Notes: generated by a model from the letters alone, not told the origin. Positions 9,285 through 31,715 are shown, counted from the stretch's first letter. The stretch is 42,341 nt of DNA from Promethearchaeota archaeon (GCA_048939995.1 JBHLOY010000015.1:1-42341); one strand, 5' to 3'. Numbers and translations are program-made.

Positions 9285-11747
9285 ATGATTATACAAGATA
9301 ATGAAAATAAAATCGAAATTGATAACAGTATAGTCTCACTAATTTTCATTAAGAAAGGTAAAGATCATGGAACCTTTGAAATTAATCATCATCATCAATA
9401 CACACTGAAACATTGTTATAGTGCAATAAATATACTAAATGAAAATTCTGAATCAATTTGGGAGATTCCGTCAAAAGGTTTAGATTTCAATCACCAAATT
9501 GAAGAAATCAAGGATAATATAGGAAGTGGTATAAAAGTTATATTAAAACCCCAGAATAATAAAGAAAATGATATCAAATTTCATATTCAATTCAGAGTTT
9601 ATGAGAATCAATCGTTTATTCTAATTAAAATCACTGATATAGCGGTTACAAAAAACGATTTTCAAAAACGAATTCATAGTATATCACCATTAACTATTAA
9701 AAATGAAAATTTGTGGATCTCTGGTACATCGACTCCCACTGATTTAGAAAAGATATCTTGGTTTAAGAATGGGTGGCAAAGTTGGAGCCCCTGCAAAATA
9801 ATTTATGGTAACGAGGAAGATAATGAGGGACCAGTATTAGATGTTTTTAAACGCACTTTTGATAATCAGGATTATATCATTAAAGGAAGGTTTTATAGCG
9901 AAGATTGTACAGCTATAACTGATTTGACATCAAATGTCTCTCTAATTCTAGGTTTTATAACATTAAATACACAATTCACTCGAATCCTATTAGATTATAA
10001 AGAAACAGAATTTTTTACGGTTTTAGCTGCCTTTGGATGTATGGATGGAATTCAATTTGATAAATCCTCAATAGATTGTTCTGAAGAGTTATTTGTATGT
10101 TTTAAGAGTGATAATTTAGGTTACTATGGTTTAATTGAATATGCAAAATTAATTAAGTTAAACCATAAAGTAAAAGATAAAATTCCAACTGGTTGGTGTA
10201 GTTGGTATTATTACTTTACGAATGTAAGTGAGAATGATATCATTAAAAACTTAGTATTTTTCCAAAACGATAAAAACTTAATACCTATTGATTTCTTCCA
10301 GTTAGATGATGGATATTTTACTCATATAGGTGATTTTAATGATGTAAACTCAAAGTTCCCAAGCGGGCTATACTCTTTATTTAAGCGCATTAATAACTCA
10401 GGCTTTAAAGGAGGTATTTGGACAGCTCCATTTTTTGCTGAAAAAAAAGCCATGCTATTTAAACAACATCGAGATTGGTTTTTAAAGTATAAGGATTTAA
10501 ATAAGTTGATTAAAGTCCATTTTGGAGCTAGCTGGAATGTCTATTTATATGGTTTGGATTTGTCTAATCCCCAAGTTTTAGATTATTTATCCCATTTCTA
10601 TGGGAACTTAATAGATTTGAAGGATTCCTCCCCAAACAATAATTCTAGCCTTATAACATTCTTTAAAATTGATTTTTTACATGCTGCTGTTCCTATTGAA
10701 GCAAAATTCTTTAATCCTAATCTTACCAGAGCGCAAATTTTGTATAATGGTGTTAAAACTATTCGAGATGCTATTAGTGTTGATAGCTTTTTGTTAGGAT
10801 GTGGTGCCCCACTTGGCCCTTGTGTTGGCTTGGTTGATGCAATGCGAATTGGAGAGGACACTGCTCCAAGATGGGAAGAAAGAAATCAACAACTTATAGA
10901 ATCTGGTATTCAAACACCTGGATTGAAGGTTTCGTTAATTAATATAATTTATCGATCCTTTATGCATAGAAAGTTTTGGATAAATGATCCTGATTGTTTA
11001 ATGATAAGAAGAACTGATACAGAATTGACAATAGAAGAAATTAGATTGCAGTTAACAATAATGGGTTTGTCTTGTGGACAAATTTTAATATCGGATGATA
11101 TAACACAATTGTCCGAAGAAGAAATAAAAGATGCTAAATTATTAATTCCTCCTTATAATCCAAATAACTTTCACCCCATCGCAGTTGATGCCTTTACCTC
11201 CAAATTACCCACCATTTTCATGTTGGAGACGAATCAAGTTATTGGAAAAAGATTTTTAGTGGCAATAATAAATTGGGAAAATAATTTTGTGAACAAGAAA
11301 GTAAATATTAAGAAAATCACCTTATATGAAAAAAATGAAACTAACTTCCTAATATTTGATTACTGGAACAAGAAATTTTTAGGTTTATTTAAGACTCATC
11401 AAGATCTGTTGTTACATAAATTAGCACCTCATTCATGTAGATATTTAGCTATTATTCCAATCGATGATATAGAGATTGCTGAACCAGTCTTGCTCTCAAC
11501 AACTTTACATATTACGCAAGGTTGCATTGAAATAAAGCAATATGAATTTAAAGAAGAAGAAGGCAAATTATTGATTGAATTTGAGTTAATTGGTAAGCGT
11601 GATGGGAACTTTTATTTGAAGCTACCTCATGGAAGGCAAATAATAGATCATGATGACGAAGTTCATATAATTGATAAAAATAATAATATTTGGGAATTAT
11701 ATATTAAATTTGAGAACAAAAAAATCATTCAAATACAATTATCTTAA
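9285..11747 (+). CDS. Glycoside hydrolase family 36 alpha-galactosidase
   Basis: PTGWCSWYYY, QLDDGY, GIWTAPF, KIDFL (nucleophile), RIGEDT (acid/base) and INDPD. Confidence 0.9.
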   Translation: MIIQDNENKIEIDNSIVSLIFIKKGKDHGTFEINHHHQYTLKHCYSAINILNENSESIWEIPSKGLDFNHQIEEIKDNIGSGIKVILKPQNNKENDIKFHIQFRVYENQSFILIKITDIAVTKNDFQKRIHSISPLTIKNENLWISGTSTPTDLEKISWFKNGWQSWSPCKIIYGNEEDNEGPVLDVFKRTFDNQDYIIKGRFYSEDCTAITDLTSNVSLILGFITLNTQFTRILLDYKETEFFTVLAAFGCMDGIQFDKSSIDCSEELFVCFKSDNLGYYGLIEYAKLIKLNHKVKDKIPTGWCSWYYYFTNVSENDIIKNLVFFQNDKNLIPIDFFQLDDGYFTHIGDFNDVNSKFPSGLYSLFKRINNSGFKGGIWTAPFFAEKKAMLFKQHRDWFLKYKDLNKLIKVHFGASWNVYLYGLDLSNPQVLDYLSHFYGNLIDLKDSSPNNNSSLITFFKIDFLHAAVPIEAKFFNPNLTRAQILYNGVKTIRDAISVDSFLLGCGAPLGPCVGLVDAMRIGEDTAPRWEERNQQLIESGIQTPGLKVSLINIIYRSFMHRKFWINDPDCLMIRRTDTELTIEEIRLQLTIMGLSCGQILISDDITQLSEEEIKDAKLLIPPYNPNNFHPIAVDAFTSKLPTIFMLETNQVIGKRFLVAIINWENNFVNKKVNIKKITLYEKNETNFLIFDYWNKKFLGLFKTHQDLLLHKLAPHSCRYLAIIPIDDIEIAEPVLLSTTLHITQGCIEIKQYEFKEEEGKLLIEFELIGKRDGNFYLKLPHGRQIIDHDDEVHIIDKNNNIWELYIKFENKKIIQIQLS

Positions 11748-12767: not shown

Positions 12768-14138
12768 TTAAACAGACGTAAATTCAGTTTTCTTTCCAAC
12801 ACCAAATAAACCAAGAGCTACTCCTAATTCTTTATGGTCTTTACCGTAATCTCTTACAGGTACTCCTTTCATTACAGCGTCAATAGCTTGTCTGAATGCT
12901 TTGGCTCCTGCAATGGGGCCTTCAGGGTGAGCATGAATCCCACCACCACTTCCAATCATTATGTTAGTACCTAGATCTTGGACACATTTTTCCACTAAGC
13001 TAGGTGTGATTCCGCCAGAGGGCATTGGTAATGTTCTTTTTATATGTGGTGCATTGCGCATTGGCATCACCATTTGTCTTGCCGTCTCTTTGAATCTATC
13101 TGCACTTGTAGGAGCTTTACCATAAGGTGCTGGATGTACAATAGTATCACAACCAGCTAATCTCCCAAACTTTCCAAGAATTAATGGACTTGAAATCCCG
13201 CTTAAAGGATCTTGATAGAGAGCACCCGCAAGATCCATGTGTCCTAAAATAGGGACTTTTACAGACGGGTCTTCGGCTAGTTTCCTCATTGCTGAGTAGC
13301 CTGTTGAAATATGGTTTACCATTAATGCATTCGCTCCATGCTCCTGCACAATGTCGGCTAATTCAAACATCCTATCTACTCTGTCAGTAATATTCACAGT
13401 ATATAATGTCTTCTCACCTTTTTCAGAATCAGCTTTATCTAATGCTTCCATAAATGCCGTTACTCTCTCAGTAATAGGATTAAACTCAACATCAGCAATT
13501 AATTCATCATCTTTAATTATGTCACACCCTCCTACAGCTGCTTGATAAGCTAGATCAGCTCCAATCTTAGGATCTGAATAGACACATGGCTTTATCATAT
13601 TATTTAATAAAGGACGTTCCTTAACTCCTAAAATTTTTCGAATACCAACATCTCCAAACTTAGGACCCTTGAACTCCTTTAGGAAAGCCTTTGGAAACCT
13701 TACGTCAACCATTTTGAGTGGCCCTCCCATAGATATATTTCCATAGATCGTTGTAAAAAGCATTGGAAATTGAGGTTTAAAGTTTAAGGGGAAAGCTATT
13801 TGTACTACGTATTGATGCATTTTAGGATTTCCAAAAAAGTCTTCGGCCCCTTCGTATTCAAAATCTGGGATTCTCCACAATCCAATTACTTTTGCTACAT
13901 GCTTTCTTCTCTGCTCTGGGGTTTCAGCAGGAACTGGAACAAATGTGCCTGTTGATTGTTCAATACAAACAGCTTGCATCATATAAAAAGCATCCATTTT
14001 TCGATGAAGCATTGCATTATAAGTAGCAATAATATGAGTCTCATAATCAATATCTTCTGGAAGTGCATTTGGTTTAGAAAGATTTTCTAAATCAAAATCA
14101 TCAAATTCTGGAAGATTTTTTCCGTTCAATTCTATCAC
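12768..14138 (-). CDS. RuBisCO-like protein (form IV RLP)
   Basis: EQSTGT, GNIS, IKP, DIIKDDE, PYGK, PSGG and GGGIHAHP present. Carboxylase residues K177, R295 and H327 (spinach numbering) appear substituted. Confidence 0.85.
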   Translation of the reverse strand: MIELNGKNLPEFDDFDLENLSKPNALPEDIDYETHIIATYNAMLHRKMDAFYMMQAVCIEQSTGTFVPVPAETPEQRRKHVAKVIGLWRIPDFEYEGAEDFFGNPKMHQYVVQIAFPLNFKPQFPMLFTTIYGNISMGGPLKMVDVRFPKAFLKEFKGPKFGDVGIRKILGVKERPLLNNMIKPCVYSDPKIGADLAYQAAVGGCDIIKDDELIADVEFNPITERVTAFMEALDKADSEKGEKTLYTVNITDRVDRMFELADIVQEHGANALMVNHISTGYSAMRKLAEDPSVKVPILGHMDLAGALYQDPLSGISSPLILGKFGRLAGCDTIVHPAPYGKAPTSADRFKETARQMVMPMRNAPHIKRTLPMPSGGITPSLVEKCVQDLGTNIMIGSGGGIHAHPEGPIAGAKAFRQAIDAVMKGVPVRDYGKDHKELGVALGLFGVGKKTEFTSV

Positions 14139-14225: not shown

Positions 14226-15329
14226 TTAGTCTTTAGATTTCAATGCAGTTTTTAAATTAAGATAAGAATTCTCAAGTACGGTTAAATATTCAATTAAAAC
14301 TTGATTAGCTTTTGATTTCTTCTCGTACTCTGCTTTAATAATATTTATTAAATATTTAGGAAAGATTATATCGACATAAAAATCACAAAGCAACGCATAA
14401 TATTCGTTATTTCGATCATCTTGAAACACCTGAATCATTTTACTTTCCCAAAGCATCTTTAATACCTCATCAACATCCTCAACACCCTTCTTTTTAAGTT
14501 TTTCAAGATCATTTCTTGTTACTATAGCTGTTCGTAATAAGCGTAGAGTTTCATAAACTTGAGGGTTTATTATAACATCTATTACTGTAAGGTTATCTTG
14601 TTCAGAAGGGCGATAAGTTTGAAAGAATTTTTTAGACTCTGTGCGATAATCTTCTGCAAGTTGAATTGGTAAGCCTTTATCAGCAGGATTTTTTAATAAC
14701 TGAATTGGTGGAACTCTCATCATTATAGGATCATTTATTAAGAAAATAAGTTCTGATGGCATTCCTTTTACAGATGCTTCTTTAATGATATCTTTTTTTA
14801 TCATTTCAATTAATACTCCTTCTAAATCAAAGAATCCCTGTCTATACTTATCTTTCAGCCAGACCATGAGCTCTGACTTAGAAACTACTCCTTCCTCTCT
14901 CAAGCGATTTATGATCATTCTCTTTATTTCGTCTTGATAGGTAATTGCTAGCCGTTGTTCATCATTCAATGTTGGATACACAGATAATCTTCGAAATAAT
15001 GAAGCAATTAGTTCCAAATAAGCTTCTTCATCAATATTCTGCAAAATTATTCTAGATATATCTATTAATCCGCTTTCATAAGCATCAGGATCGTCATCTA
15101 AATTTAATAATAGCATAACATAGTACCCTTTGTCTGGACCGGTATAGTAGGAGGCGATATTGAGAGAACCAACCATTAAACTAATCATGCCTGGATCTCC
15201 ACTATACTCATGCGTACTATAAACCTGCATTAAAGTCTTCTCAGAAATGTTAATTTCTGCTGGAAATTTGGCTAGAATTTCGGTTCCTACTCTCTCATCC
15301 CATTTCATCAGTACTAATCCAACTGGCAT
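14226..15329 (-). CDS. Longin/uDENN-like N-terminal domain + two winged-helix-like domains (367 aa), copy A
   Basis: Start corrected to ATG 15329 (MPVGL), 1 bp after the upstream stop and giving the same length as the paralogue. WDERVGTEILAKFP resembles the uDENN/NPRL2 F-D-x-x-x-G-P-x5-P start. CDS is secure; the fold is inferred. Confidence 0.65.
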   Translation of the reverse strand: MPVGLVLMKWDERVGTEILAKFPAEINISEKTLMQVYSTHEYSGDPGMISLMVGSLNIASYYTGPDKGYYVMLLLNLDDDPDAYESGLIDISRIILQNIDEEAYLELIASLFRRLSVYPTLNDEQRLAITYQDEIKRMIINRLREEGVVSKSELMVWLKDKYRQGFFDLEGVLIEMIKKDIIKEASVKGMPSELIFLINDPIMMRVPPIQLLKNPADKGLPIQLAEDYRTESKKFFQTYRPSEQDNLTVIDVIINPQVYETLRLLRTAIVTRNDLEKLKKKGVEDVDEVLKMLWESKMIQVFQDDRNNEYYALLCDFYVDIIFPKYLINIIKAEYEKKSKANQVLIEYLTVLENSYLNLKTALKSKD

Positions 15330-15330
15330 T

Positions 15331-18300
15331 TTAGGCAGCACCTCCTTCAAATTCACTTGGTTCAATTCTTTTTCCCTTCTTCCTCTCAACTCCTAAAATA
15401 TCTGCTAATGATAACCCAAGAGTTTCCCATTTATCTCCTACTCTTTTCACAATATATTCTTCTTTTGAGGGATAGAGTAAGGATTCTGACACTGACTTTT
15501 TACTTTTTATTATACTCTTCATTTCTTTAACTCTTTTAACGAATGTAGGGATTCTTGCGCTTTGTATAGCTCGATAAGCTAATAAACTACCTACAACAGC
15601 TACTAAAGCAGCAATAATCATAAAAAAGTAGAATAACGGGAAGCCAGGAAATATCTCAATCATCTTGACGTCAATAAAAATAATTCTAGTTGTATCACTA
15701 TAATTAGTTTTTCTAATGATAATAGTTGCGGTCAATCTTTCATTATAAAAGAATGCATCAGGCAAAATTGAATCTGGAACGACAACTGTATACGTACCAT
15801 CTCCATTATCAGTGAAGTTAAAGTAATTACTTCCAACACTTAAACTAACTTCAGCATTCATTACAGGGTTATTGTATAAACGATCATTAAGACTAATATC
15901 AAAGGTTAAGGCTTGTCCCGATATAACCGAAACAATATCACTTACATCTATCTCAAATTCTCTTGGGATAATATTTAAGAATATAATAGCGGTTCTTTCT
16001 ATATAATTTGTTTCACTAAGCGTTATGACTAAGCTATACATTGCTATTTCCAGAGATTCTGTAGTAAGATCCAATTCAAATAACCCATTGCCTAAATCAT
16101 TTAATTCAATGATCCCTTGATCAACGACAACTCCACCTATATCTTTTTCCCATGCACATTTTTTTATGTCAATATTTGATAAACCTGTTCCAGTAGTCTC
16201 TACAATATATTCGAAATAGAATATTTGTTGAGTCCCTACAAAAACATCAAAAGTTTCATATAAAGCCGCAGAATCATTTATTCTTGTATTTATTTCAAAT
16301 ATTTCTAATGGAATTATAACCGATTTAGTTTCATAATTTTGCTTAGAAGCACTGATTTGTATATTATATTCTCCGTATTTAGGAAAGGCTGAACTATTTA
16401 ATTCTAGCCGATACAAACCTCCTACACCATACGGAGTTAAACTTCCAGTAATTCCAGTGACACCGAGTTCATAATATTGAACAATAGCACCATTCAGGTT
16501 TTCATCAGGATCAGCATAAATATCAGTATATTGAACATCTAGAGTTATAATATCATTCCAATATCCCTCTACTTGACTCATATTTGGACTAAGACTTGTG
16601 GGTCTATCTAAAAGAGTAAAGGTTATTGAACTTGCATTTGTAATATATCCTGGTTTTGTAGCATAGATATCCATAATATAATTTACTCCTGATAACCAAT
16701 TTGCTCCTCCTAGTTCGATAGGAATAGTTGTATCTATTAGGAGACTATATCTTCCATTCCCAGACTCTGAAAAATATAAATTACCTGTATTAATTTTTGT
16801 GGTGCCTATTTTGATATCATATCTTACAGTTCCATCTACAATTGGGTTACCGTAAAGAGGTAAACCGTTTTTCGTGTAGGTATAGTTGACCCAGATATTC
16901 AAAGTATCACCCAAGATAACAGCATCTACACCAGAAGCATTTACATATAGGAATGACTTAAAAGTATCTCCAGTGGTTACTTCGATTATTGTTTCAAGGT
17001 ATTGATCAAAAGAAAGTGTCACCATTCCATCATTAGGTGTCGGATCTAAATCATCGACACAAACTAAATTTGAATATTGAGTACCATGCCATGTGACTGT
17101 CAAACTAACATTACCACTTATTGAAATATTATTCCAGTGAAACATAACATTTCCAATAGAGTTTGTATATTCAGAGCCTAATAGTGCAGGTCCTGAACCA
17201 TCATCAATAGTAAAGGTAATATTGGCTCCAACAACATATTCTTGGAAAAATCCTCCATCAAATCTTTGGAATGATAAATTCAGTGAAGTTAAACCGACAT
17301 TTATAAATTTTAACCTATAAATACCATAATTGTCTACTACAGAATCATTAAGTTCTATAATCTGAGGACTAGTTATTGTTAATATCTGACTATAGCGTTC
17401 ATATGATGCATTCACGATATATGTTCCGTTTGATAATCGATCAAAAACCGTCCTTCCATTCTCATCTGTTCGTTGAATCCAGCTTATCGCGGGATTTGAA
17501 GCATTTAAAACCGTTATTGTTGCCTCAGGTACTAATCGATTATCAATGTCGGTAACATTTACCTCTAATGTATAAAAGAAACTATCCTCCTCATAAATAT
17601 AAATATTAAGGTCTGTTCTCAATGTTTCTAAGGTGTCATCAAAATATTGGACCATTCCAGTATTATCTAGAGTTCCAGTTATGTTTACTCCATTAAGATA
17701 TTCCCAGAAATATACAAATAACTTATAAGGCTCTCCACCTCCACTATTATCTAAGTCATTAATCGAGCCAGGCACAAATTCTACCATACCTTCATCATAA
17801 AGGATATCTCCTTGCAAATAAGTGATATCCATTTGAACTGGATCTGATATTTCAAAACCTTCAATAAATACCCCTAGAGCATCCTTAGAGGCATCAGGAG
17901 CATTGTGAATAATGGTATAATTTTCAGAAATAAAACCAGCAGTAGTTATATCTTTCTGTAAGTTTCCATCAAAAAGATATAAGAATCGATCATGATCATT
18001 TAAATTTGAAAGATCGTAATGAGTATTTAAAGCAAACATACGATCTAGTGTATAGTTGAAGTCATTATCAAAATAAATACTCCGATTAATAGCCCATAAG
18101 TTGTAATCTGAGTAAAATGTACAAATATCTTGGATATGCATATCAAATGTGGTTGCCCATTCAATTTTATATCGAGAAAATATTTTCCCATTCTCCAATT
18201 CAGTGATAGATTGAATAGTTGATGGCATAGAACCATACTTATAATCTTCGACCTCTTGATTAGTTAAGTATTTATTATATACAGCAACCTCATCAATCTG

Positions 18301-19611
18301 ACCTTTGAAATACTGATTTATATGTTCTGATGCTCCTATAGTAAATGGGCTTCCAACTGCTTCGTCTAAATCTGTTGCCCCTTGCCATGTCGTAGCATCT
18401 GGATACCATGTATCTTTAAGAAAAACTTCTACAAGCCCATTTATATAACGTACTGCAACAAAAAACCAACCACCTGCTGTAGTTATTTTTCCAGCAGGTC
18501 CAAAATCAGCGTATCTATCGTCAGTTTCAGTATCGATATAAACATGAATGTTACCCTCGTTATTTACCCCTATTTCAAAATTATCATTATATGAATCACT
18601 TGCTTTTGCCAAAAAAACGTTTTCAGTTTGATGATTTGTAGCATCACCTGAAATTGAGCTTGGATTTATCCAAGCACAAGCTGTGAACTCAGTACTTGCT
18701 CCATTAAATGGGTCTCCAACAGCTTCTAATCCATTAGCGTAGCTGACAAAATCATTACCATCGAAATCCATGCCATATTGCACTCTTCCATCTACATAAA
18801 AGGGGTCTCCACTAATAACACCATCAGGCTCATTTCCAGTTGAGTCAGAAACAGTATTCTCGAAATGAGCTAAGAACTTTAAGCTTGGCACTGATAGTTG
18901 TTTTTCTGGAGATAATGAACTATTTGAATGAAAATTATATCCTAACCTTTCAAATTTGGTGACTGATAACCCTTGTTCGATCTCTATTTCATAGTTTGTA
19001 CCGACGTTTATTGTTAATTTTCCAGAAGATAAATGACTAGAAAAGCCGGTATTGTAAACAATTTGATTGATATCGTTTAAATTTTCGTTATAATATAGAA
19101 AATAAGTTCTATTTGAGCTCGCTGGAACATCAGCAATAAAGGTTATTGTGCATGACTTAATAAAATTTGTTGCATCGTATTTAGTAATATTCCACATCTG
19201 CATTGGGATAAGATCACTCCATTCATTATTACCTGTGGCATTAAAACTCACAAGGCGTTCAGTATTTTCATAATGTTCATTCTCTCGAAATCTAAGAAAA
19301 ATATCTAGCGGTTGATGCCTGTTAATATTCTCAGTTTCTTCTAAAATAAAACCAACTCTATATCGAAAAGTTTTATTCCACCATAATAGTAAATCGATCT
19401 TCTCACTCATATAAATAACATCAGAACTTTTTGGATAAAAGAAATGATCCTCAAGCTCTTCTTTCTCACCGGATATTTCATTTATAAATGATTTCTCCTC
19501 TTTTTCTTTACTGTAAGAGTTTATTAAAAAATTAGCTATGAAAGCTGGTGTTAAAAGTATTAATAAAAAGAAAAGCGGATATACAAATTTACGCTTTAAT
19601 TTGATATTCAT
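15331..19611 (-). CDS. Large single-pass cell-surface protein A (DUF2341-like, LamG/concanavalin-like, Ig-like stalk, C-terminal TM + cytoplasmic tail)
   Basis: N-terminal hydrophobic signal; WWNKTFRYR; LamG motifs GMDFDGND, FTACAWINP and FKGQIDEVAVYN; repeated beta-sandwich segments; many NxS/T; TM near the C-terminus followed by an ~80-aa basic tail. Confidence 0.85.
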   Translation of the reverse strand: MNIKLKRKFVYPLFFLLILLTPAFIANFLINSYSKEKEEKSFINEISGEKEELEDHFFYPKSSDVIYMSEKIDLLLWWNKTFRYRVGFILEETENINRHQPLDIFLRFRENEHYENTERLVSFNATGNNEWSDLIPMQMWNITKYDATNFIKSCTITFIADVPASSNRTYFLYYNENLNDINQIVYNTGFSSHLSSGKLTINVGTNYEIEIEQGLSVTKFERLGYNFHSNSSLSPEKQLSVPSLKFLAHFENTVSDSTGNEPDGVISGDPFYVDGRVQYGMDFDGNDFVSYANGLEAVGDPFNGASTEFTACAWINPSSISGDATNHQTENVFLAKASDSYNDNFEIGVNNEGNIHVYIDTETDDRYADFGPAGKITTAGGWFFVAVRYINGLVEVFLKDTWYPDATTWQGATDLDEAVGSPFTIGASEHINQYFKGQIDEVAVYNKYLTNQEVEDYKYGSMPSTIQSITELENGKIFSRYKIEWATTFDMHIQDICTFYSDYNLWAINRSIYFDNDFNYTLDRMFALNTHYDLSNLNDHDRFLYLFDGNLQKDITTAGFISENYTIIHNAPDASKDALGVFIEGFEISDPVQMDITYLQGDILYDEGMVEFVPGSINDLDNSGGGEPYKLFVYFWEYLNGVNITGTLDNTGMVQYFDDTLETLRTDLNIYIYEEDSFFYTLEVNVTDIDNRLVPEATITVLNASNPAISWIQRTDENGRTVFDRLSNGTYIVNASYERYSQILTITSPQIIELNDSVVDNYGIYRLKFINVGLTSLNLSFQRFDGGFFQEYVVGANITFTIDDGSGPALLGSEYTNSIGNVMFHWNNISISGNVSLTVTWHGTQYSNLVCVDDLDPTPNDGMVTLSFDQYLETIIEVTTGDTFKSFLYVNASGVDAVILGDTLNIWVNYTYTKNGLPLYGNPIVDGTVRYDIKIGTTKINTGNLYFSESGNGRYSLLIDTTIPIELGGANWLSGVNYIMDIYATKPGYITNASSITFTLLDRPTSLSPNMSQVEGYWNDIITLDVQYTDIYADPDENLNGAIVQYYELGVTGITGSLTPYGVGGLYRLELNSSAFPKYGEYNIQISASKQNYETKSVIIPLEIFEINTRINDSAALYETFDVFVGTQQIFYFEYIVETTGTGLSNIDIKKCAWEKDIGGVVVDQGIIELNDLGNGLFELDLTTESLEIAMYSLVITLSETNYIERTAIIFLNIIPREFEIDVSDIVSVISGQALTFDISLNDRLYNNPVMNAEVSLSVGSNYFNFTDNGDGTYTVVVPDSILPDAFFYNERLTATIIIRKTNYSDTTRIIFIDVKMIEIFPGFPLFYFFMIIAALVAVVGSLLAYRAIQSARIPTFVKRVKEMKSIIKSKKSVSESLLYPSKEEYIVKRVGDKWETLGLSLADILGVERKKGKRIEPSEFEGGAA

Positions 19612-19924
19612 TTATTCACTACCCATTTTTCGAATTTTATCTTTAAATTTAAAGTAAATTAATGTTTTTAACATTATTAATGCCAACGTTAATATTTAAC
19701 TTTTTATCATACTAACAAATATTTACTTTAAAAGCATTTAAAATAAAAATCAAAAAATTTATTGCTATTATATTCGATGATTTTGTCCTTGTTTTCTTTT
19801 GAATAAATTTAAATATAAAAATTTAGATTGGAGGATCAAGGAACGTATCGGAAAATAAGTCCTCTATTAAATAAGAATAAAAAAAGGTATTTTTAAATTA
19901 AAATCACGAATTATTTGTGAAACA

Positions 19925-20959
19925 ATGTTAAGACAAATTTACATTTTTAAAGACGGTAATATTTTATATGAAAAGAATTTTGGAAAAGCTTTAACTCAAG
20001 AAAAGTTAAGAGATATCTATCTAGAGATTACTAAAGAAGCATTTCGAGGAATTGGAACTGATTTTGGGAGTTATTCCTTTTTCAAATATAAAATAGTTTA
20101 TTCCTCAGAAAGTGATTCAAGACTACTTTTTATGTTTATTGCTGGATTAAATGATGGTGATCAACAGTTAAAGAGTGATTTAAAAAAGTTTCAAAAAGAA
20201 TTTTCAGAAACTTTTGGAGATAGTATTGAAAATCTTGACCCCTCTTTACTACAAGTATTAGATCCTGTCATTGATTCAATATACAGAAATATAAAAACAA
20301 AAATCTCTTTAATTGGATTTTCTGGTGTTGGTAAGACTACCATAACAAAATTAATTCGTTCCGAAGAAATCCCCGATGTTCATGTTCCTACTATTACCGG
20401 AAAAGTCTCAACAATCAAAATGGGTAAATTATATTTTCACTTATGGGATTTTGCTGGCCAAGAACAATTCAGCTATTTATGGAATGACTTCATTTTTGGA
20501 AGTGATGCCGTTCTATTGATTTCAGATTCAAGTTTAGAAAATGTGGAAAAAAGTAGATTTTTTGTTGAACTAATAAGGGAGCAAGTACCTTATGCCCATT
20601 CAGCAGTTATTGGAAATAAGCAAGATTTACCCGATGCTTTAAAAATTGAAAAAATTGAAAAGATTTTAGGATTAAAAACATATTCAATGGTGGCAATTGA
20701 TCCAAATAATCGTGATAAAATGATTCAAATTATTGCTGATATTTTAGAAGTTAACACTGAAATCTCTCCATTGTTAAAACCTCTTTTTGAACGAGATCAG
20801 TTAATTGAAAAGGCAAAAAAATCTTTAGAAAGCGGAGATATTTTACAAACAGCAGAATATTTTGATAAGATTTCTGAACTATGTTATGATATGGGTGATT
20901 TTAGTCTTTATCGAGAGTTTTATGAAAAAGCAGAAAAATTAAAATCAAATCTGATTTAA
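19925..20959 (+). CDS. Small GTPase with N-terminal longin-like domain and C-terminal helical domain
   Basis: G1 GFSGVGKTT, G2 PT, G3 WDFAGQ, G4 NKQD. The N-terminal ~120 aa (QIYIFKDGNILYEKNF...LLFMFIAG) has a longin pattern. Confidence 0.88.
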   Translation: MLRQIYIFKDGNILYEKNFGKALTQEKLRDIYLEITKEAFRGIGTDFGSYSFFKYKIVYSSESDSRLLFMFIAGLNDGDQQLKSDLKKFQKEFSETFGDSIENLDPSLLQVLDPVIDSIYRNIKTKISLIGFSGVGKTTITKLIRSEEIPDVHVPTITGKVSTIKMGKLYFHLWDFAGQEQFSYLWNDFIFGSDAVLLISDSSLENVEKSRFFVELIREQVPYAHSAVIGNKQDLPDALKIEKIEKILGLKTYSMVAIDPNNRDKMIQIIADILEVNTEISPLLKPLFERDQLIEKAKKSLESGDILQTAEYFDKISELCYDMGDFSLYREFYEKAEKLKSNLI

Positions 20960-20994
20960 AAGTTCTAAAAAATTAAAAAAAAGAGAAAAAATAT

Positions 20995-22098
20995 TTAATC
21001 TTCTGATTTTTGGATTGATTTTGGATTATAATAAGAATCTTCTAGTACTTTAAGATATTCAATTAATACAGACTCTGATTTTGATTTCACTTCATATTGA
21101 TGTATAATTGTATTCAGAATAAATTTAGGATACACTCTTGTTATTTGGAAATCTGTTAAAAGACAATAATATTCTGCTCCGTGATCGTCTCGAAATGTAT
21201 GAATCATTTTATGTTCCCATAATTTTTTTAATGCACCATCAATATCATCTACTCCTTTTTTTCTTAGTTTCTCAAGAGCGCTCCTTGTCACAATTGCAAT
21301 CCGTAATAACTTTAATATTTCATATGTTTGTGGATCACTCAATATATCTAGCGAATTCAAGTTATCTTGTTCAGAGATATGATAATTTTGGAAAAATTTT
21401 TTAACTTCTATTTTATACTCTTGAATGTATTTCTCTGGAAGTCCTGCTTCCTCAGGATTTTGAAGAAGTTTTACAGGTGGTTTGCGAAGCATGAACAAAT
21501 CGCTTATTAGAAAAATTAGTTCAGAGGGCATTCCTTTAACTGATGTCTCTTTTATCAATTCCTTTTTGATAAGTTCATTAAGAGTTGCATCTATATCAAA
21601 AAAACCTCTTCGATATTTATCTTTTAACCAAACACTTAATTCAGATTTTGATACTACACCTTCTTCTCTAAGCCTGTTTATAATTAATCTATTAACTTCA
21701 TCTTGATAAGTAATAGCAAGGGTTTGCTCAAGGTTTAAATGTGGATAAACAGATAAGCGTTGAAATAAGAATGGTATCATATCCAGGTATAAATTATCTT
21801 CTAAGTTCTGAATTATGATTCTTGAAATATCTGACAATCCACCTTCATATGAATCTGGATCATCTTCTAAATTTAAGAGAGAAATTATATATAATGCTTT
21901 ATCTCTTCCCGTGTAAAAAGAAGCAATATTTAGATGTCCTACCAATAGACTTATCATTCCTGGTTCTCCAGTATATTCATGAGCAGCGTATACTTGCATT
22001 AAAGTTTCATCAGAAACTATAATTTCTTCTGGATATCGTGTTACAATTTCAGTCCCTACTTTTGGATCCCATCTCATAATAAGCAATCCAATTGGCAT
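20995..22098 (-). CDS. Longin/uDENN-like + winged-helix protein (367 aa), copy B
   Basis: Colinear with 14226..15329, with identical blocks INRLREEGVVSKSEL and SVKGMPSELIFLI. Start overlaps the upstream stop (TAATG). Confidence 0.65.
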   Translation of the reverse strand: MPIGLLIMRWDPKVGTEIVTRYPEEIIVSDETLMQVYAAHEYTGEPGMISLLVGHLNIASFYTGRDKALYIISLLNLEDDPDSYEGGLSDISRIIIQNLEDNLYLDMIPFLFQRLSVYPHLNLEQTLAITYQDEVNRLIINRLREEGVVSKSELSVWLKDKYRRGFFDIDATLNELIKKELIKETSVKGMPSELIFLISDLFMLRKPPVKLLQNPEEAGLPEKYIQEYKIEVKKFFQNYHISEQDNLNSLDILSDPQTYEILKLLRIAIVTRSALEKLRKKGVDDIDGALKKLWEHKMIHTFRDDHGAEYYCLLTDFQITRVYPKFILNTIIHQYEVKSKSESVLIEYLKVLEDSYYNPKSIQKSED

Positions 22099-25000
22099 TA
22101 GTCATTTTCCCCTCCATTCTTTGTAATTTTATTAGCAAATTGACCGAATCTTGACTTTAAATCCTTAGCACTAATAATGTCTTCAAGCGAAAGTCCTATT
22201 GATTTCCACTCTTCACCATATAATTCAGACATCAATTCTTCCTTGTTTGGGATAGACATTTCAGTGATCTTTTTCTTTGACTTAATGGCTCCTTTGACTT
22301 TTCTAATCTTTTTCACAAACTTCGGAATTTTTGCTTGTTGAATAGCCCTGTAACCTATTGCTGTAATCGCTATTGCGGCTACAGAAGCTGTAATTAGAAT
22401 GAAATAGAAAGTTGGCATTCCAGGGAAAATCTCCTCCATTAGAATATTAAAAGTGATATCTACCTCTTGACTAGTAAAATTATCTTTTTGTATGATTATC
22501 CTTCCACCAAATATATTTGATACAAAAAAAGCATCAATATTTTCGGTATTGAATGTCATCGTATAATAACCAGGAGTATCTTCCGTAAAACTATAATCAG
22601 ATCCTTGAGTTCTAAGTACTAATGAAGCGTTGGTTAATATTGAGTTTCTTGTAGTATCTGTTAGATTTATTTCTAGAAAGATATCAGATCCTTGAACAAC
22701 ACTTACTTGATTTCCGCTCTTACCTGTCGCTTCCCATTCTACACTAAATTCTCTTAGTTTTATTTCAAGATCTAATAGAGCAAATCTGGCATCATAGCTT
22801 TCTTTTTGTAAAGTTATAAATAGTCTGTAATCTCCAATTGGTTTTTTCGCTGTATTGAAATCTAATGAATAAGATTTATTTGCTAGTTCAATTAATGTCC
22901 CCGCTCCCTCCATACCCGGTATTGGATCACGATTCTCATCTAATTGCTGCCAACTGTAAACGGCTAAATCCAAATCTCCCAAAGTCTTAGCTGTTAAAGC
23001 ATCTGAATATATAAAATTGAATAACTCACCATCTTCTGCCCAAATTTTGGGGTAGGATGAAAAATGAACCTCACCATTAACATAAGTGGGTCTTGGATCG
23101 ACATCTAGAAATATATTAAAATTACTTTGAGTAGTAAAATTCTCAAGAGAAGCGCTAATTGATATGACCTTTATTCCTGTACTTAATGCACTTGAAGTAT
23201 TTAATTGAAGAGTGTAATATCCAATATTAATTGGATCTGGTTGAATAGTGAAAGGTCCTATTCCAATCCAACTATATCTGACTTGTGCTCCAAGAAGATT
23301 ATTAAGAATATCAGAACGATAGTATCTAATTGTTAAATTCACAAGTTCACCATAATAGGCATTAATCGTACTATCTGGGATTTCTATGAGAGAATCATGA
23401 TCATATAATCTAATTGTTGTTGGAATTGCTCTCACCCTTACAAAAAAAGTCTCAGTGTTTGGTTGAGGATATCCCGGTTTATTTCCCGTTATTTTAAAAG
23501 AATAATATATGTAAGAACCTCCAGCAGATAATAGATTAGAATTAAGGGTAATTGAAAAATTTCCACTTCCAAGAAAATTCATTTCTTTCACAAATAATAC
23601 TGAACTCGAACCTACTTCAGTTATAATCAAACTGCATGATGAAGATAAACCAGTTGGAGTCCAAGAACCTCCTCCGTCTTGAGTATAATAAAAATTCACA
23701 GAATAAGTCATATTATTACCCCAAAGCACATCAGTAGTACCCGTTGCATTAAAGAATGCTGTATCATAATTTGTTGTATTTAACTCCGATGGGAGGATAA
23801 GATTAAATGTTATAGAAGCACTACCATAAAAAGTATAGTTATAATAAGTTGTTCCGGTATTAGATGTAGGATACCATTGATTTTCCGGATCAAGTTCAGT
23901 AATATTAAACGCAATATCAATATTATCAAGATAATTTATTGAAAAATTATAAGTTCTATCAATGAAAAACCAGAATGGCAATTCAAAACCATTTTTTGGT
24001 CCATAAGATGAACCATTTCTTTCCCAGAATGAAGTCAAATTTATTAATGGTTGTCCGGCATCATCTCTTACTTTAATTAAAGAAGAAACAGGCATACCTT
24101 CAGGTGAAATATCTTTACTTATTACTCTAATATGCAATTTAGATAATTTTGTCCTATTATAAGTGTTTGCTGTTTCAATTAAATCCACAGTAATAACCCC
24201 ATTACATTGAGTGCTATTCAATCCGTTTATTTCAATGAATAAACCATAAACTTGATGGTTCTCACTATTCAATTTTGAATTAGTTATTCTAATCATATCT
24301 AAGCTTATGAAATCGTTGTCATCCCCAAATCCATAATCGTCATCGAAATAAATAAGATTTTCCTCCCCAACACCTTTAGAATTGTCTCTATCGATATAAT
24401 AGATAGAGATATCTTGAATCTGATCATTCATATTCGTTAATGTGATATTAGCTTTTACAATTTTTTTATTTCCAAACGTTATTCTTGAACCATTTGTATA
24501 AATATATTCACTTACATTATATCTGCTTTCAATGCTTGGAGCTTGATTAACTTCATCTACATCTATAATATGGGTTTGAAACTTTGAAATCTCATAATCA
24601 GAGCGATTTATATATCCATAGCTTACCAAGAAGGGATAACTATCATAGTCTTCATTATTATAATAGACCTCATAATAATAATAGGAAGCAGATGTCCACC
24701 GAAAAGTTGTTTTTCCTTGAGAACTTAACGTTATCGTACTTAAAACAGTACCTGCTTTTTGATCACTTACATTTATATATGCATATTTTAATGGTAGTCT
24801 CTCCCAGTCAACAATTTCAAAATCAATTGTCCATAAATCCAATTTTAGATCAACTATAAAAGATTTTCCAGTGAAATTATGAGTTATTGAATTAAATTTA
24901 GTGCTATTATATACTTCTACTTCTTCAGATCCAAGGGTGTAATTCGCTGTAATATTGTACACACCATTTAATACATTATTAAACACAATTGAACCATTTA

Positions 25001-26498
25001 AACTTGAACTTACTCCTGATTGAACTATAAAGTTATCTGTACCTTTAGCAGAGTTATTAACAATTGCAACCTTGGCATTTGGAACTATTCTACCGTCAAT
25101 ATCTCTTGTAATTATTGTAATATCGGATCTTCTCTTTTGAGCCTCATTAACTACAGCTGTTAATGTATAATTAAAACTTAATGCGTCTACTTGGAAAAAA
25201 GCTGATTTCTGCTTAAATTGGGCGCTAGATTCATCACCCCATACTCCAAATTCAAAAAAGACTTCTTTACCCATGTATTGTGTTAAATCTATACCAACAA
25301 ATCCAGTTAATTCCCCATCACTAGAAGTATCTGATACTGTGTCTTTTATTTCTTGTGTACTTGTGTGAGTATCAAAGTTAATTAATTTTGTCTGATCTTC
25401 CAATGGTAACCACTTTTTAGAACTTGGATTGTATTCAGAATATCCATCATATATTTCTCCATAATTATCATAATTATTATTATAGATATCAGAATCATCA
25501 TGGAGATCAGGATCAGTATTATAATGAGATGATGACCCATTTAAAATTCTTAAAAAATACCCATCTACATTCAGATCTGCATCCATGGTTTTTGGCTTTT
25601 CAAATCTCCATGTCCTAATATTCCGAAACAAATCTAAAGAAATAGCTCCCCCTTCAACTATAGGAACTTTAAATGGATAAGTAAATAAAGTTCCTGCATA
25701 ATCATTTATCGTATCAGTGGGTAAAACTACTCCCGAAGTACCCCATTTATATGCATAAGATCCATCACCAACTCTCTCTCCAGATTGTGGATTACTTATT
25801 AACTTATTTACAAATAATTCAATACCTGGACTATTATATTCGGCTGAGCTTGGATTGGTTTGACCCTTAATAGTATTAACTGGGTTATGTGAAAAATTCC
25901 ATCCATATGGCTCATAATTTGAGTCCGTAGATATATCTAGTTCAAAATTACCATTTTTAATCCATCCAAAGCTCTCAGAAATATCTCGCGCTTCAAAATT
26001 TATAGCTATCTCATTACCAAAATATAAATATGTATCTCTTTCAGTTCGACTCGCTGAGACATTAGTGTCAAACCAAATAGTTGCTAAATTTTGACTAGGA
26101 TAATCTTTTTGCACATAATAGTTTCTTAAAATCCCATTTTCAACAATTCTTAAATCGTCTAGATCCGATTGTAATTTGCCTTCTTGTACCAAATTAACAT
26201 AATTGAATGATAAACTCACTCCAAAATCAACGAAATTATAAGAATAAGGGTTTGTAATATTAATAAGCATTCTATATTCGAAAGAATGATCCCACCAAGG
26301 AGCATTGCCAAATAAACTCGATTTGGGAAAATGTAATATATTATTCTCATAATCATTATAATGATTGTTAAAATTACTAAAATCAGGAGAATTAGTTGAT
26401 ATATTCATCAAAAAGACTGAATAAGCACCAGTTAAAAGAATAAATGATAAAATAAAGAGTCCCATTAGTCTATTGCGACGTAATCTTTTATTTTTCAT
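22098..26498 (-). CDS. Large single-pass cell-surface protein B (DUF2341-like, carbohydrate-binding-like, Ig-like stalk, C-terminal TM + tail)
   Basis: Signal segment; WWDHSFEYRMLINITN...DLDDLRIV...YLYFGN (DUF2341-like); IKNGNFE; C-terminal EIFPGMPTFYF-TM-YRAIQQAKIPKFVK shared with protein A. Confidence 0.85.
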   Translation of the reverse strand: MKNKRLRRNRLMGLFILSFILLTGAYSVFLMNISTNSPDFSNFNNHYNDYENNILHFPKSSLFGNAPWWDHSFEYRMLINITNPYSYNFVDFGVSLSFNYVNLVQEGKLQSDLDDLRIVENGILRNYYVQKDYPSQNLATIWFDTNVSASRTERDTYLYFGNEIAINFEARDISESFGWIKNGNFELDISTDSNYEPYGWNFSHNPVNTIKGQTNPSSAEYNSPGIELFVNKLISNPQSGERVGDGSYAYKWGTSGVVLPTDTINDYAGTLFTYPFKVPIVEGGAISLDLFRNIRTWRFEKPKTMDADLNVDGYFLRILNGSSSHYNTDPDLHDDSDIYNNNYDNYGEIYDGYSEYNPSSKKWLPLEDQTKLINFDTHTSTQEIKDTVSDTSSDGELTGFVGIDLTQYMGKEVFFEFGVWGDESSAQFKQKSAFFQVDALSFNYTLTAVVNEAQKRRSDITIITRDIDGRIVPNAKVAIVNNSAKGTDNFIVQSGVSSSLNGSIVFNNVLNGVYNITANYTLGSEEVEVYNSTKFNSITHNFTGKSFIVDLKLDLWTIDFEIVDWERLPLKYAYINVSDQKAGTVLSTITLSSQGKTTFRWTSASYYYYEVYYNNEDYDSYPFLVSYGYINRSDYEISKFQTHIIDVDEVNQAPSIESRYNVSEYIYTNGSRITFGNKKIVKANITLTNMNDQIQDISIYYIDRDNSKGVGEENLIYFDDDYGFGDDNDFISLDMIRITNSKLNSENHQVYGLFIEINGLNSTQCNGVITVDLIETANTYNRTKLSKLHIRVISKDISPEGMPVSSLIKVRDDAGQPLINLTSFWERNGSSYGPKNGFELPFWFFIDRTYNFSINYLDNIDIAFNITELDPENQWYPTSNTGTTYYNYTFYGSASITFNLILPSELNTTNYDTAFFNATGTTDVLWGNNMTYSVNFYYTQDGGGSWTPTGLSSSCSLIITEVGSSSVLFVKEMNFLGSGNFSITLNSNLLSAGGSYIYYSFKITGNKPGYPQPNTETFFVRVRAIPTTIRLYDHDSLIEIPDSTINAYYGELVNLTIRYYRSDILNNLLGAQVRYSWIGIGPFTIQPDPINIGYYTLQLNTSSALSTGIKVISISASLENFTTQSNFNIFLDVDPRPTYVNGEVHFSSYPKIWAEDGELFNFIYSDALTAKTLGDLDLAVYSWQQLDENRDPIPGMEGAGTLIELANKSYSLDFNTAKKPIGDYRLFITLQKESYDARFALLDLEIKLREFSVEWEATGKSGNQVSVVQGSDIFLEINLTDTTRNSILTNASLVLRTQGSDYSFTEDTPGYYTMTFNTENIDAFFVSNIFGGRIIIQKDNFTSQEVDITFNILMEEIFPGMPTFYFILITASVAAIAITAIGYRAIQQAKIPKFVKKIRKVKGAIKSKKKITEMSIPNKEELMSELYGEEWKSIGLSLEDIISAKDLKSRFGQFANKITKNGGEND

Positions 26499-26626: not shown

Positions 26627-27274
26627 CTACAATCTTTTTTTAAGCAATAGAAATATTTTCCTTCTTTTTGGATTATTTGGATTATCAATTATGAAATTTC
26701 CTTCAAATTTAGTATTTTCAACGAATATTTTCCCAATTCTCTCCATAATTTCATTGCTTTTAGGATAAAATTGAAATATTGCTTTGCAATTTGGTCTTAA
26801 CACATTAAAGAAAGACTTACTAAGTGCGATAACTAAGGATTCCATCCTTTGATTACTTATATCTCTAAATATCCATTGTAAGGCAGATATTGAAATAATA
26901 GCATCAAATCTCTCAGGTTTAAAAGGAAGAAAACACATATCTGCTCTTATAGGATTGAGATCTTGTAAATCGTAGAACTTTAAGAATTCCAAGATAATAT
27001 CAAGTGCCACAACTTTAAATCCAAGTTCTTTTAAGTATGATGCAGCAAATCCAGGTCCACAACCTGCATCTAAGATACTCAATTTCGATGGAGTTATTTC
27101 TAATAACTCTAATGCTCTGCTCGTTATTTTTTCTTGGATTCTCATCATACTTTTGGATTTTGCATATCTCTTAATATTTTCACTGTCATAATAATCCCAA
27201 ACATGCTTAAAAACTTCTTCAGGTCTCTTTGTTTTTATATTGAAAGTTAATCTGTCGTTCAAATCAAATAACAC
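26627..27274 (-). CDS. Class I SAM methyltransferase, Bud23/WBSCR22-like
   Basis: RPEE, IQ..IT.RALELL, ILDAGCGPG, FDAIISISALQW, QFYPK and IIDNP...KRRKIFL appear in the same order as in yeast Bud23 (compared from memory). Confidence 0.8.
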   Translation of the reverse strand: MLFDLNDRLTFNIKTKRPEEVFKHVWDYYDSENIKRYAKSKSMMRIQEKITSRALELLEITPSKLSILDAGCGPGFAASYLKELGFKVVALDIILEFLKFYDLQDLNPIRADMCFLPFKPERFDAIISISALQWIFRDISNQRMESLVIALSKSFFNVLRPNCKAIFQFYPKSNEIMERIGKIFVENTKFEGNFIIDNPNNPKRRKIFLLLKKRL

Positions 27275-29010: not shown

Positions 29011-29943
29011 TTATTGGATAATCTGTAAGATTATGTTTTCCATTTGAGGTTTTGCTGATTCAATTTTATCTAAAATTTCTATGGTTTTTTGTAAATTAGT
29101 TTCATCTTCTTCAAGAATGAATAATAGATAAAAATCTAAATTATCAAATTTTAACACCTCTATAATTCCAGTGTAGCGATCACCATTATCAAACTTGTCA
29201 GAGAATTCTAGTAATGACTTATTTTCTGACATAATTCTCTTTTGTACTTCAAGATACTTATCATATATTCTAACTTTTTCTACTAAATGTAAGTGAGGCC
29301 GATAATACTCTCCAATGGTTATTCCTTTAACATCGAATAATGCAATAAGTATTGCATTATAATTTTTACTTAGTTCAGCAAATAATTTTGAAACCAATTC
29401 CAGCTTCTCAAATAATAATGAAAGACCACTTGAGAAAGCATCCATTACTGACTTTATATCAAAAATAGTTGTTTCAAAAAAGAAAATATCAAAATCATGG
29501 CTATATCTAATCAGTGCTTGCTTAATTGGCAACGTCTTTTTATTCAAATTCTTATCTTTTTTAAGTAAGGGATCAAATTTATGAAATAAGACACAGATAG
29601 GAGGATATTCTTGTTCTTCTTTAAAAAAGAGCAGAATTTGATCAAGATAATCAATTGCTTTTACATATCTTTCATAATCTTGAACATCAATTACATAGAA
29701 TATTAAATCCATTCCAGAAAGATATTTATGGGGATAATTTAAGTATTCGTCCCTATATTGAGCTTGTCCTCCAAAATCCATTCTAATAAATTCAATACCT
29801 AAGAATCTAAAAGCATCCCGAACAACTTTGCGAGTTGGCATTAACTTAAAAACTTCATCCTCGAATCCAAATCGCTTCGTTATAGCTTTAATAATACTGG
29901 TTTTACCAGCGTTATCAAGCCCGACATATGCAATCTTCCGGAT
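29011..29943 (-). CDS. Rag/Gtr-like small GTPase with C-terminal roadblock-like domain; ATC start
   Basis: Frame extends upstream of the ORF-track start to (M)RKIAYVGLDNAGKTS (G1). G3 DFGGQ, YVIDVQD, G4 HKFD, G5 ETTIFD. C-terminal ILIALFDVKGITIGEY roadblock-like segment. Confidence 0.85.
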   Translation of the reverse strand: MRKIAYVGLDNAGKTSIIKAITKRFGFEDEVFKLMPTRKVVRDAFRFLGIEFIRMDFGGQAQYRDEYLNYPHKYLSGMDLIFYVIDVQDYERYVKAIDYLDQILLFFKEEQEYPPICVLFHKFDPLLKKDKNLNKKTLPIKQALIRYSHDFDIFFFETTIFDIKSVMDAFSSGLSLLFEKLELVSKLFAELSKNYNAILIALFDVKGITIGEYYRPHLHLVEKVRIYDKYLEVQKRIMSENKSLLEFSDKFDNGDRYTGIIEVLKFDNLDFYLLFILEEDETNLQKTIEILDKIESAKPQMENIILQIIQ

Positions 29944-30070
29944 TCTATAATCACCTTATTAAATCTTACAAATTATTAATTGCACTATATCCTAATAAAT
30001 CCTTACTTTTTTCATTTTAAAAATGAGAATAATACTTAATTCTATAGCAAAGAGTACATATTTAAAAGTC

Positions 30071-30352
30071 TTATCCACCAGAAATAGGGAAGGAGATATA
30101 AAGTTTGTCACCATCTGTTAACTTAGTCTTGTAATTTTTCATATAGGTAATATTTCTGCCATTTAGAAGAACGACCATTAGTGGACTAAGTTTTTTTTTA
30201 TTTTTACTTAAAGTGTTTTCATCTAATTTATCTCTATATTCATCAAGAAATTGAGAAATTACATCCCCAACATTTTTCCCATTATATATTATTGAATTCT
30301 TTTTAATCTTTAAGGCAAAAATATTCAATAAATGTAATTCAACTTCAGCCAT
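30071..30352 (-). CDS. MoaD/ThiS/SAMP-family ubiquitin-like protein
   Basis: 93 aa; VLLNGRNI...TKLTDGDKLYISFPISGG with C-terminal diglycine. Confidence 0.9.
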   Translation of the reverse strand: MAEVELHLLNIFALKIKKNSIIYNGKNVGDVISQFLDEYRDKLDENTLSKNKKKLSPLMVVLLNGRNITYMKNYKTKLTDGDKLYISFPISGG

Positions 30353-30460
30353 AGTCTCTCTTTTAATAATATTTTCAAGAAATACTCATTTTCTATTAAG
30401 TTATTCTATTTCTTATTAAATTTAACTCACTTTTAAGCCTTTTTCTAATAAAAAGTAATC

Positions 30461-31690: not shown

Positions 31691-31715
31691 TATAACAACT
31701 CCTTCTAATTCAAAA

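What the first reader, a model, noticed from the sequence alone, without database searches (positions are those of the whole stretch)
14226..26498. Duplicated 'surface protein + longin/DENN-like partner' modules flanking a longin-fused small GTPase: candidate archaeal receptor-to-GTPase signalling system
Seen: two copies of a two-gene unit. In each, a ~1450-aa single-pass surface protein is followed by a 367-aa cytoplasmic protein with a 1-bp gap (15331/15329) or a TAATG overlap (22098), which suggests translational coupling. Between the copies lies a small GTPase with an N-terminal longin-like domain. Established: longin/DENN domains act as GEF/GAP platforms for Rab/Rag GTPases and often heterodimerise. 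Inference: each surface protein senses a ligand or contact, recruits its coupled partner through its tail and regulates the GTPase, as a prokaryotic analogue of adhesion-receptor signalling. I do not know of a description of this system but cannot search to confirm novelty.
Basis: partly seen in the sequence, partly recalled or inferred. Interest (0 to 1): 0.9.

Follow-up and report, generated by a model that had tools for sequence, protein, structure and literature searches.

The report
Asgard surface-anchor, longin adaptor, GTPase module

Summary
Observation confirmed. This Lokiarchaeia-type window holds two R-P pairs (surface protein R, coupled 367-aa partner P) and a longin-Arf-like GTPase (G). 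P is not DENN-like: it folds as longin plus two winged helices (NPRL2/3-like) and has no conserved arginine finger. The R-P link is strong. Junctions are -1 to +2 nt in 31 loci, R and P are fused in three paralogs of this genome (one evolutionary event), and the tail motif reaches Odin-, Thor- and Atabeyarchaeia. The P-G link is phylum-wide: within 3.5 kb in 33 of 43 distant Asgard genomes (about 2% expected by chance), often with no surface gene nearby. A P2-G complex prediction gave only weak support (0.50 vs 0.00). Mini-R proteins with no ectodomain also couple to P, so anchoring is better supported than ligand sensing. Best reading: a membrane-tethered longin platform for a dedicated GTPase at the base of variable adhesins; outside-in signalling about 35%. 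I found no paper describing it, but this scan already reported the system on other DNA. All genes are present in cultured Promethearchaeum syntrophicum.

The parts
15331..19611 (-). R1, 1426-aa predicted surface glycoprotein: N-terminal hydrophobic segment (12-30), LamG (305-454), Ig/transthyretin-like stalk, TM (1326-1344), 80-aa basic conserved tail
   Evidence: 26 N-glycosylation sequons in the ectodomain, none in the tail
15334..15636 (-). R1 TM plus cytoplasmic tail with the conserved [RK]IPxF(V/I)K juxtamembrane motif; predicted docking site for P
14226..15329 (-). P1, 367-aa longin plus two winged helices; starts 1 nt after the R1 stop
   Evidence: fold inferred from P2 model, 63% identical
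19925..20959 (+). G, 344 aa: longin (1-124), Arf-like GTPase (124-276; G1, G2, WDFAGQ G3 with catalytic Gln and NKQD intact), helical hairpin (285-341); no membrane anchor; divergent from R1, convergent on P2 (35-nt gap)
20995..22098 (-). P2, 367 aa: longin (1-120), winged helix 1 (126-204), winged helix 2 (240-327), C-terminal helices; TAATG overlap with R2
   Evidence: (pLDDT 90.5)
22098..26498 (-). R2, 1466-aa predicted surface glycoprotein: weak DUF2341-like N-terminal domain, unassigned domain where R1 has LamG, Ig-like stalk, TM (1364-1382), 82-aa conserved tail
   Evidence: 34 sequons; no informative Atlas hit

Best explanation
A three-part, membrane-tethered small-GTPase module. (1) R is exported and anchored by its C-terminal TM helix, and its conserved basic tail binds P (inferred from coupling, fusion and tail conservation; binding not measured). 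(2) P is an NPRL2/3-like longin/winged-helix adaptor whose longin pairs with the longin of G and forms the two-longin platform on which the Arf-like domain sits (inferred from synteny, a weak complex prediction and known longin-dimer platforms). (3) G has no anchor of its own, so it is recruited to the base of the surface protein, where P localises it and probably tunes its nucleotide cycle allosterically rather than through an arginine finger (inferred). The soluble P-G pair looks like the old core; the TM-tail is the membrane adaptor; ectodomains are exchangeable and sometimes absent. The likely output is local control of membrane or cytoskeleton at adhesin sites, or placement and turnover of the adhesin (speculative).
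For: R-P gap of -1 to +2 nt in 31 loci of the order, more. Three R-P fusions in this genome and at least 9 further fusion representatives. The seven best tail-profile hits in this genome are all fused to, or in a run directly upstream of, a P gene. TM+tail identity 54-84% against ectodomain 24-73% within the genus. Tail motif recognisable in Odin-, Atabey- and Thorarchaeia. P fold: longin Z 12.3-12.4, rmsd 2.5-2.6 A over 118 residues to NPRL2, plus two winged helices. P within 3.5 kb of a G-family gene in 33 of 43 distant genomes, 8 of 13 families, 23 within 300 nt; about 2% expected by chance. R-P-G operon in Atabeyarchaeum and P-R-G in a Thorarchaeon. R2-P2-G occurs in five different flanking contexts. 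P2-G prediction: weak support, 0.50 vs best control 0.00, runs agree in at least 91% of contacts, partner pLDDT at least 80; the mark was reached by 58 of 80 solved and 2 of 110 mismatched pairs, but at 0.60 or under by only 7 solved and both mismatches.
Against: No experimental binding data. The fusions form one clade (100/98), so they count as one event. The complex score lies in the weak range and may reflect likeness to solved longin dimers. Most R1-P1 loci have no G nearby. In P. syntrophicum and its family the full R-P pairs are not next to G; only a ~125-aa longin-only P relative is. No P-G adjacency in Odinarchaeia or family f22. Related genomes are not independent samples.
Confidence: 0.7

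Rival explanations
1. True outside-in receptor signalling: ligand or cell contact at the ectodomain changes clustering or tail conformation and switches P's GEF/GAP action on G. This is an extension of the best explanation, not an alternative to the wiring.
For: Variable ectodomains (LamG or others) on a constant TM-tail-P unit; paralogue arrays; G keeps its catalytic Gln.
Against: Mini-R proteins of 134-147 aa without an ectodomain couple to P in four genomes, two of them in R1's position; P-G operons with no R in the fetched region in five families; no ligand or activity data.
Confidence: 0.35
2. Inside-out sorting or placement: P-G works as a cargo adaptor that reads the tail as a sorting signal and positions or removes surface proteins (protrusions, vesicles), like Arf with the longin subunits of adaptin complexes.
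For: G is Arf-like; adaptin sigma/mu and COPI zeta longins are among P's structural neighbours; the tail is shared by very different ectodomains.
Against: One dedicated P per R, and permanent R-P fusion, fit a stable stoichiometric unit better than a reusable cargo adaptor; no coat genes seen in the loci.
Confidence: 0.25
3. P is a membrane-tethered transcription regulator (longin sensor plus DNA-binding winged helices, ToxR/CadC-like logic), and the GTPase is upstream or incidental.
For: The winged helices resemble MarR/ArsR/heat-shock regulators; databases label some homologues ArsR-like; Levine et al. (PMC3747258) leave a DNA partner open for NPRL2's winged helices.
Against: P is acidic (pI 4.9-5.2); WH1 net charge 0 to -1, WH2 -2 to -6; the first recognition helix opens with conserved acidic residues (68% and 75% D/E) and the wing-2 tip is 78% acidic; the conserved neighbour is a GTPase.
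Confidence: 0.1
4. R-P is a structural anchor pair and the GTPase is an unrelated neighbour in a GTPase-rich genome (65 GTPase-domain hits here).
For: Many small GTPases per genome; G absent from most R1-P1 loci.
Against: The neighbour is the same longin-GTPase family, often the genome's best match to G, across eight distant families; the trio moves together.
Confidence: 0.1

Closest known systems
GATOR1 subunits NPRL2/NPRL3 (SEACIT Npr2/Npr3)
   Same: N-terminal longin followed by tandem winged helices (PMC3747258), similar size, best structural match of P's longin, link to a small GTPase.
   Different: No conserved arginine finger or GP motif; no Pfam NPR2 match; winged helices do not superpose as a whole (TM 0.2-0.38); partner is an Arf-like longin-GTPase rather than a Rag; tethered by a surface-protein tail.
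C9orf72-SMCR8 Arf-GAP and FLCN-FNIP2
   Same: Two-longin platform for an Arf-type GTPase; P has W10-D11 and G15 with the spacing of C9orf72 W33-D34 and G38, residues needed for Arf1 GAP activity.
   Different: No DENN core in P; no catalytic-subunit arginine; the second longin would be supplied by the GTPase itself.
Asgard longin-GTPase fusions and NPRL2-like longins (Liu et al. 10.1101/2020.10.19.343400; Tran et al. PMC10933270)
   Same: G's architecture is already reported; an Asgard family with NPRL2-like organisation is mentioned.
   Different: Neither text describes the P-G operon or the link to surface proteins; Tran et al. state that MK-D1 GTPases are generally not in operons with longins. 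Figures and supplements were not readable, so P may be the family Liu et al. listed.
Ragulator-Rag, MglA-MglB and SRX-SRbeta
   Same: A longin or roadblock platform recruits an unanchored GTPase to a membrane.
   Different: Here the anchor is the tail of a large, variable adhesin-like protein. The SRX-SRbeta comparison rests partly on my own knowledge.

Membership tests
DENN proteins | N-terminal uDENN/longin domain | tested here: met
   Z 10.3-10.8 to DENND1A/B longin, residues 1-120
DENN proteins | Central alpha/beta DENN core and dDENN domain | tested here: not met
   Confident model (pLDDT 90.5) shows two winged helices after the longin; DENN alignments stop at residue 120
NPRL2/NPRL3 | Longin plus tandem winged-helix architecture | tested here: met
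NPRL2/NPRL3 | Sequence-level homology (Pfam NPR2/NPR3, PDB sequences) | tested here: inconclusive
   No hit for 32 members at E<=1 or for the profile against PDB; deep divergence not excluded
Longin GAP catalytic subunits (NPRL2, FLCN, SMCR8) | Conserved arginine finger in a longin loop | tested here: not met
   No Arg column above 40% between strands 4 and 5; the only Arg-rich longin column is position 13 (55%), not kept in P2. Placing the finger in the strand 4-5 loop is my own knowledge.
Longin GAP catalytic subunits (NPRL2, FLCN, SMCR8) | GP motif before strand 2 | tested here: not met
   G15 in 107 of 114, Pro16 in only 11 of 115 (motif defined in PMC12290439)
C9orf72-type non-catalytic longin | WD motif after strand 1 | tested here: met
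   W10 89%, D11 80%
Longin GEF/GAP platforms | GEF or GAP activity on a cognate GTPase | not testable with these tools
   Needs biochemistry
Longin GEF/GAP platforms | Physical complex with the GTPase | tested here: inconclusive
   Weak support 0.50 vs 0.00; no interface given
Arf-like small GTPases | G1-G4 motifs with WDxxGQ | tested here: met
   Pfam Arf E 1e-19; motifs invariant in 30 homologues
Arf-like small GTPases | N-terminal amphipathic membrane helix | tested here: not met
   N-terminus is a longin domain, Z 13.9 to VAMP7 longin
Type I membrane receptor | Cleaved signal peptide, one TM, cytoplasmic C-tail | tested here: inconclusive
   Two hydrophobic segments, sequons only before the second, basic tail after it; cleavage not tested
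Type I membrane receptor | Ligand-dependent signal transfer across the membrane | not testable with these tools
   Mini-R forms show the ectodomain is not needed for coupling to P

The most novel reading that the evidence does not exclude
An Asgard-wide adhesion-receptor pathway in which interchangeable surface domains signal through a conserved tail and an NPRL2-like adaptor to a dedicated Arf-like GTPase: a prokaryotic surface-receptor-to-small-GTPase circuit built from relatives of the eukaryotic longin GAP platforms.
Probability: 0.3. Interest if true: 0.9.

Novelty: new variant of a known kind. Interest (0 to 1): 0.7.

Why it matters
Asgard genomes encode dozens of small GTPases and longins, and published work says they are hard to match to regulators from genome layout (PMC10933270). 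Here one GTPase family has a phylum-wide operon partner and a candidate membrane anchor, which ties the unexplained surface proteins of these cells (PMC9834061) to eukaryote-like switches. The genes exist in the cultured P. syntrophicum MK-D1 (P WP_147664720.1 behind LamG protein WP_147664721.1; second P DSAG12_02912; G family WP_147664160.1), and the soluble parts are small, so the open question of what Asgard GTPases do becomes directly testable.

Tried and rejected
Split R/P as a sequencing frameshift: rejected, since stop-start junctions with ribosome-binding motifs recur in 31 loci in all three frames and the fused forms are one derived clade. DENN assignment: rejected. P-GTPase fusion: none among 20 long P homologues scanned. 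Pfam and PDB sequence searches for P gave nothing significant; Foldseek gave no E<=0.001 match. Atlas search of the R2 N-terminal region was uninformative (0.77). Expression: one RNA run held the MK-D1 locus only as contigs that may be DNA and did not cover P or the junction, so no conclusion. Promoter and terminator scan was at chance level and is not built for archaea. Literature searches by terms and by MK-D1/Odin accessions found no description of the module; supplements were not held and subscription papers are not covered. P was not found with this query in 10 of 25 unnamed Asgard families; that is not proof of absence. Tail-P binding was not modelled, because the single complex job went to P-G.

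Full report
Setting. The window is contig C10 of a 3.75-Mb, ~29% GC genome. Named close homologues of P1 are mostly labelled Promethearchaeota or Lokiarchaeota, and same-order genomes include Promethearchaeum syntrophicum MK-D1, so this is a Lokiarchaeia-type Asgard archaeon.

Observation. All five genes, the 1-nt gap and the TAATG overlap are as reported. P1 and P2 are 63% identical; R1 and R2 share only the stalk, TM and tail (29% over 580 aa). R1 has LamG and Ig-like hits, R2 only weak Ig-like and DUF2341 hits. Each R has an N-terminal hydrophobic segment, 26 or 34 sequons, a TM about 80 residues from the end and a basic tail.

What P is. The AlphaFold model of P2 (pLDDT 90.5) has a longin (1-120), two winged helices (126-204, 240-327) and closing helices. 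The best structural match is the NPRL2 longin (Z 12.3, rmsd 2.5 A, 118 residues), 1.3 Z above VAMP7 and 2 above DENND1A. Foldseek ranks GATOR1/SEA chains near the top but none below E 0.001. NPRL2/3 are described as longin plus repeated winged helices (PMC3747258). So P resembles NPRL2/3 in architecture and is not a DENN protein. Across about 150 homologue rows W10, D11, G15, P23, H40, S60 and G64 are conserved, but there is no conserved arginine in the strand 4-5 loop and no GP motif. The W-D-x-x-x-G spacing equals that of C9orf72, the non-catalytic Arf-holding subunit. The winged helices are neutral to acidic with acidic recognition-helix starts, which argues against DNA binding.

What G is. 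Longin (Z 13.9 to VAMP7), Arf-like domain with intact G1-G4 and catalytic Gln, and a helical hairpin. It has no TM segment. It is a short paralogue of a longer GTPase (57% identical) found across the order.

R-P link. The pair is kept with gaps of -1 to +2 nt in 31 loci. The same genome has three proteins of 2651-3009 aa in which R and P are one chain, with the tail running straight into P; further fusions exist elsewhere. All 15 fused domains form one clade, so this is one event. The seven best tail-profile hits in this genome are all fused to P or lie in a run directly upstream of a P gene. TM+tail and P are usually much more conserved than ectodomains. The tail motif is visible beside P genes in Odin-, Atabey- and Thorarchaeia. 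Four genomes have 134-147-aa mini-R proteins (signal, TM, tail, no ectodomain) coupled to P; in two of them the mini-R takes R1's place in the same five-gene layout.

P-G link. In the window's family, G orthologues sit tail-to-tail with R2-P2 in five different flanking contexts, while most R1-P1 loci have no GTPase. P homologues occur in 83 of 121 Asgard genomes, 15 of 25 families. In 43 distant P-positive genomes a G-family gene lies within 3.5 kb in 33 and within 300 nt in 23, covering 8 and 7 of 13 families, against a rough 2% by chance. Kin are not independent, so the family count is the fair measure. Jordarchaeales, Freyarchaeum and Baldrarchaeia have P-G operons with no R in the region fetched; Atabeyarchaeum has R-P-G with gaps under 10 nt; a Thorarchaeon has P-R-G. 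In MK-D1's family only a ~125-aa longin-only P relative lies near G. Odinarchaeia and family f22 show no adjacency. The P2-G prediction scored 0.50 against 0.00 for the best control, with at least 91% contact agreement and partner pLDDT of at least 80. The tool calls this weak support: 58 of 80 solved and 2 of 110 mismatched pairs reached the mark, but at 0.60 or under only 7 solved pairs and both mismatches. Likeness to solved longin dimers may contribute.

Mechanism. Shown: gene anatomy, predicted folds, coupling, fusion, synteny. Inferred: the tail binds P (about 0.9); P partners G (about 0.8), probably longin to longin as in known platforms (PMC3747258, PMC8213707); G is thereby recruited to the base of the surface protein (overall 0.7). 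Open: GEF, GAP or scaffold, and the direction of information flow. The missing arginine makes a classical GAP role unlikely. Mini-R forms and R-less operons show that the ectodomain is optional, so outside-in signalling gets about 0.35.

Prior knowledge. Longin-GTPase fusions and NPRL2-like longins in Asgard archaea are published. The conserved operon of Liu et al. (roadblock, Rab-like GTPase, DENN) has different parts. I found no paper on the P-G operon or the surface-tail link, within the limits of the library. This scan has already reported the same system on other genomes; those notes were consulted after my first reading and are not independent support. The short notes I could see do not mention the phylum-wide count, the single origin of the fusions, the mini-R forms or the missing GAP motifs.

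Verdict. A real, conserved and apparently unpublished wiring of known kinds of parts: new variant of a known kind, interest 0.7.

Noticed in passing
window 12768-14138 (-): RuBisCO large-chain family gene directly downstream of P1; this neighbour and the upstream methyltransferase (26627-27274) are conserved around R1-P1 across the family.
   Followed up: partly
window 29011-33311 (-): Gtr1/RagA-like GTPase next to a ThiI/THUMP gene, a 93-aa ORF and a metallophosphoesterase; the run is syntenic in relatives, where the GTPase ORF is 304-311 aa, so the true start may lie further upstream.
   Followed up: no
G000 C28:260274-262319: Paralogue of G, divergent from two fused R-P genes, continues into a roadblock-like segment and a second, Rab-like GTPase domain (read from the sequence).
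   Followed up: partly
P0169, P0171, P0148: P homologues fused to SIR2-like plus TPR domains, or to a TIR domain: possible NADase-type outputs on the same scaffold.
   Followed up: no
L063:8441-18967, L064:3-9368: Proteins of 3100-3500 aa with about 55-60 hydrophobic segments, encoded divergently from a mini-R/P pair.
   Followed up: no
L110, L111, L113, L114, L115, L117; G000 C28:126951-127373: A ~125-aa longin-only relative of P lies within about 5 kb of the long G paralogue in two families, directly downstream of it in L115 and L117.
   Followed up: partly
G000 C28:327395-331351 and C17:46081-54437: Further tail-bearing membrane proteins (399 and 540 aa; weaker 538-1113 aa) beside divergent P homologues.
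   Followed up: partly
L034, L035: An extra P gene upstream of R, giving P-R-P in two genomes.
   Followed up: no
window 9285-11747 (+): 820-aa glycoside hydrolase (melibiase/GH31-like), followed by a HEAT/LRR protein.
   Followed up: no
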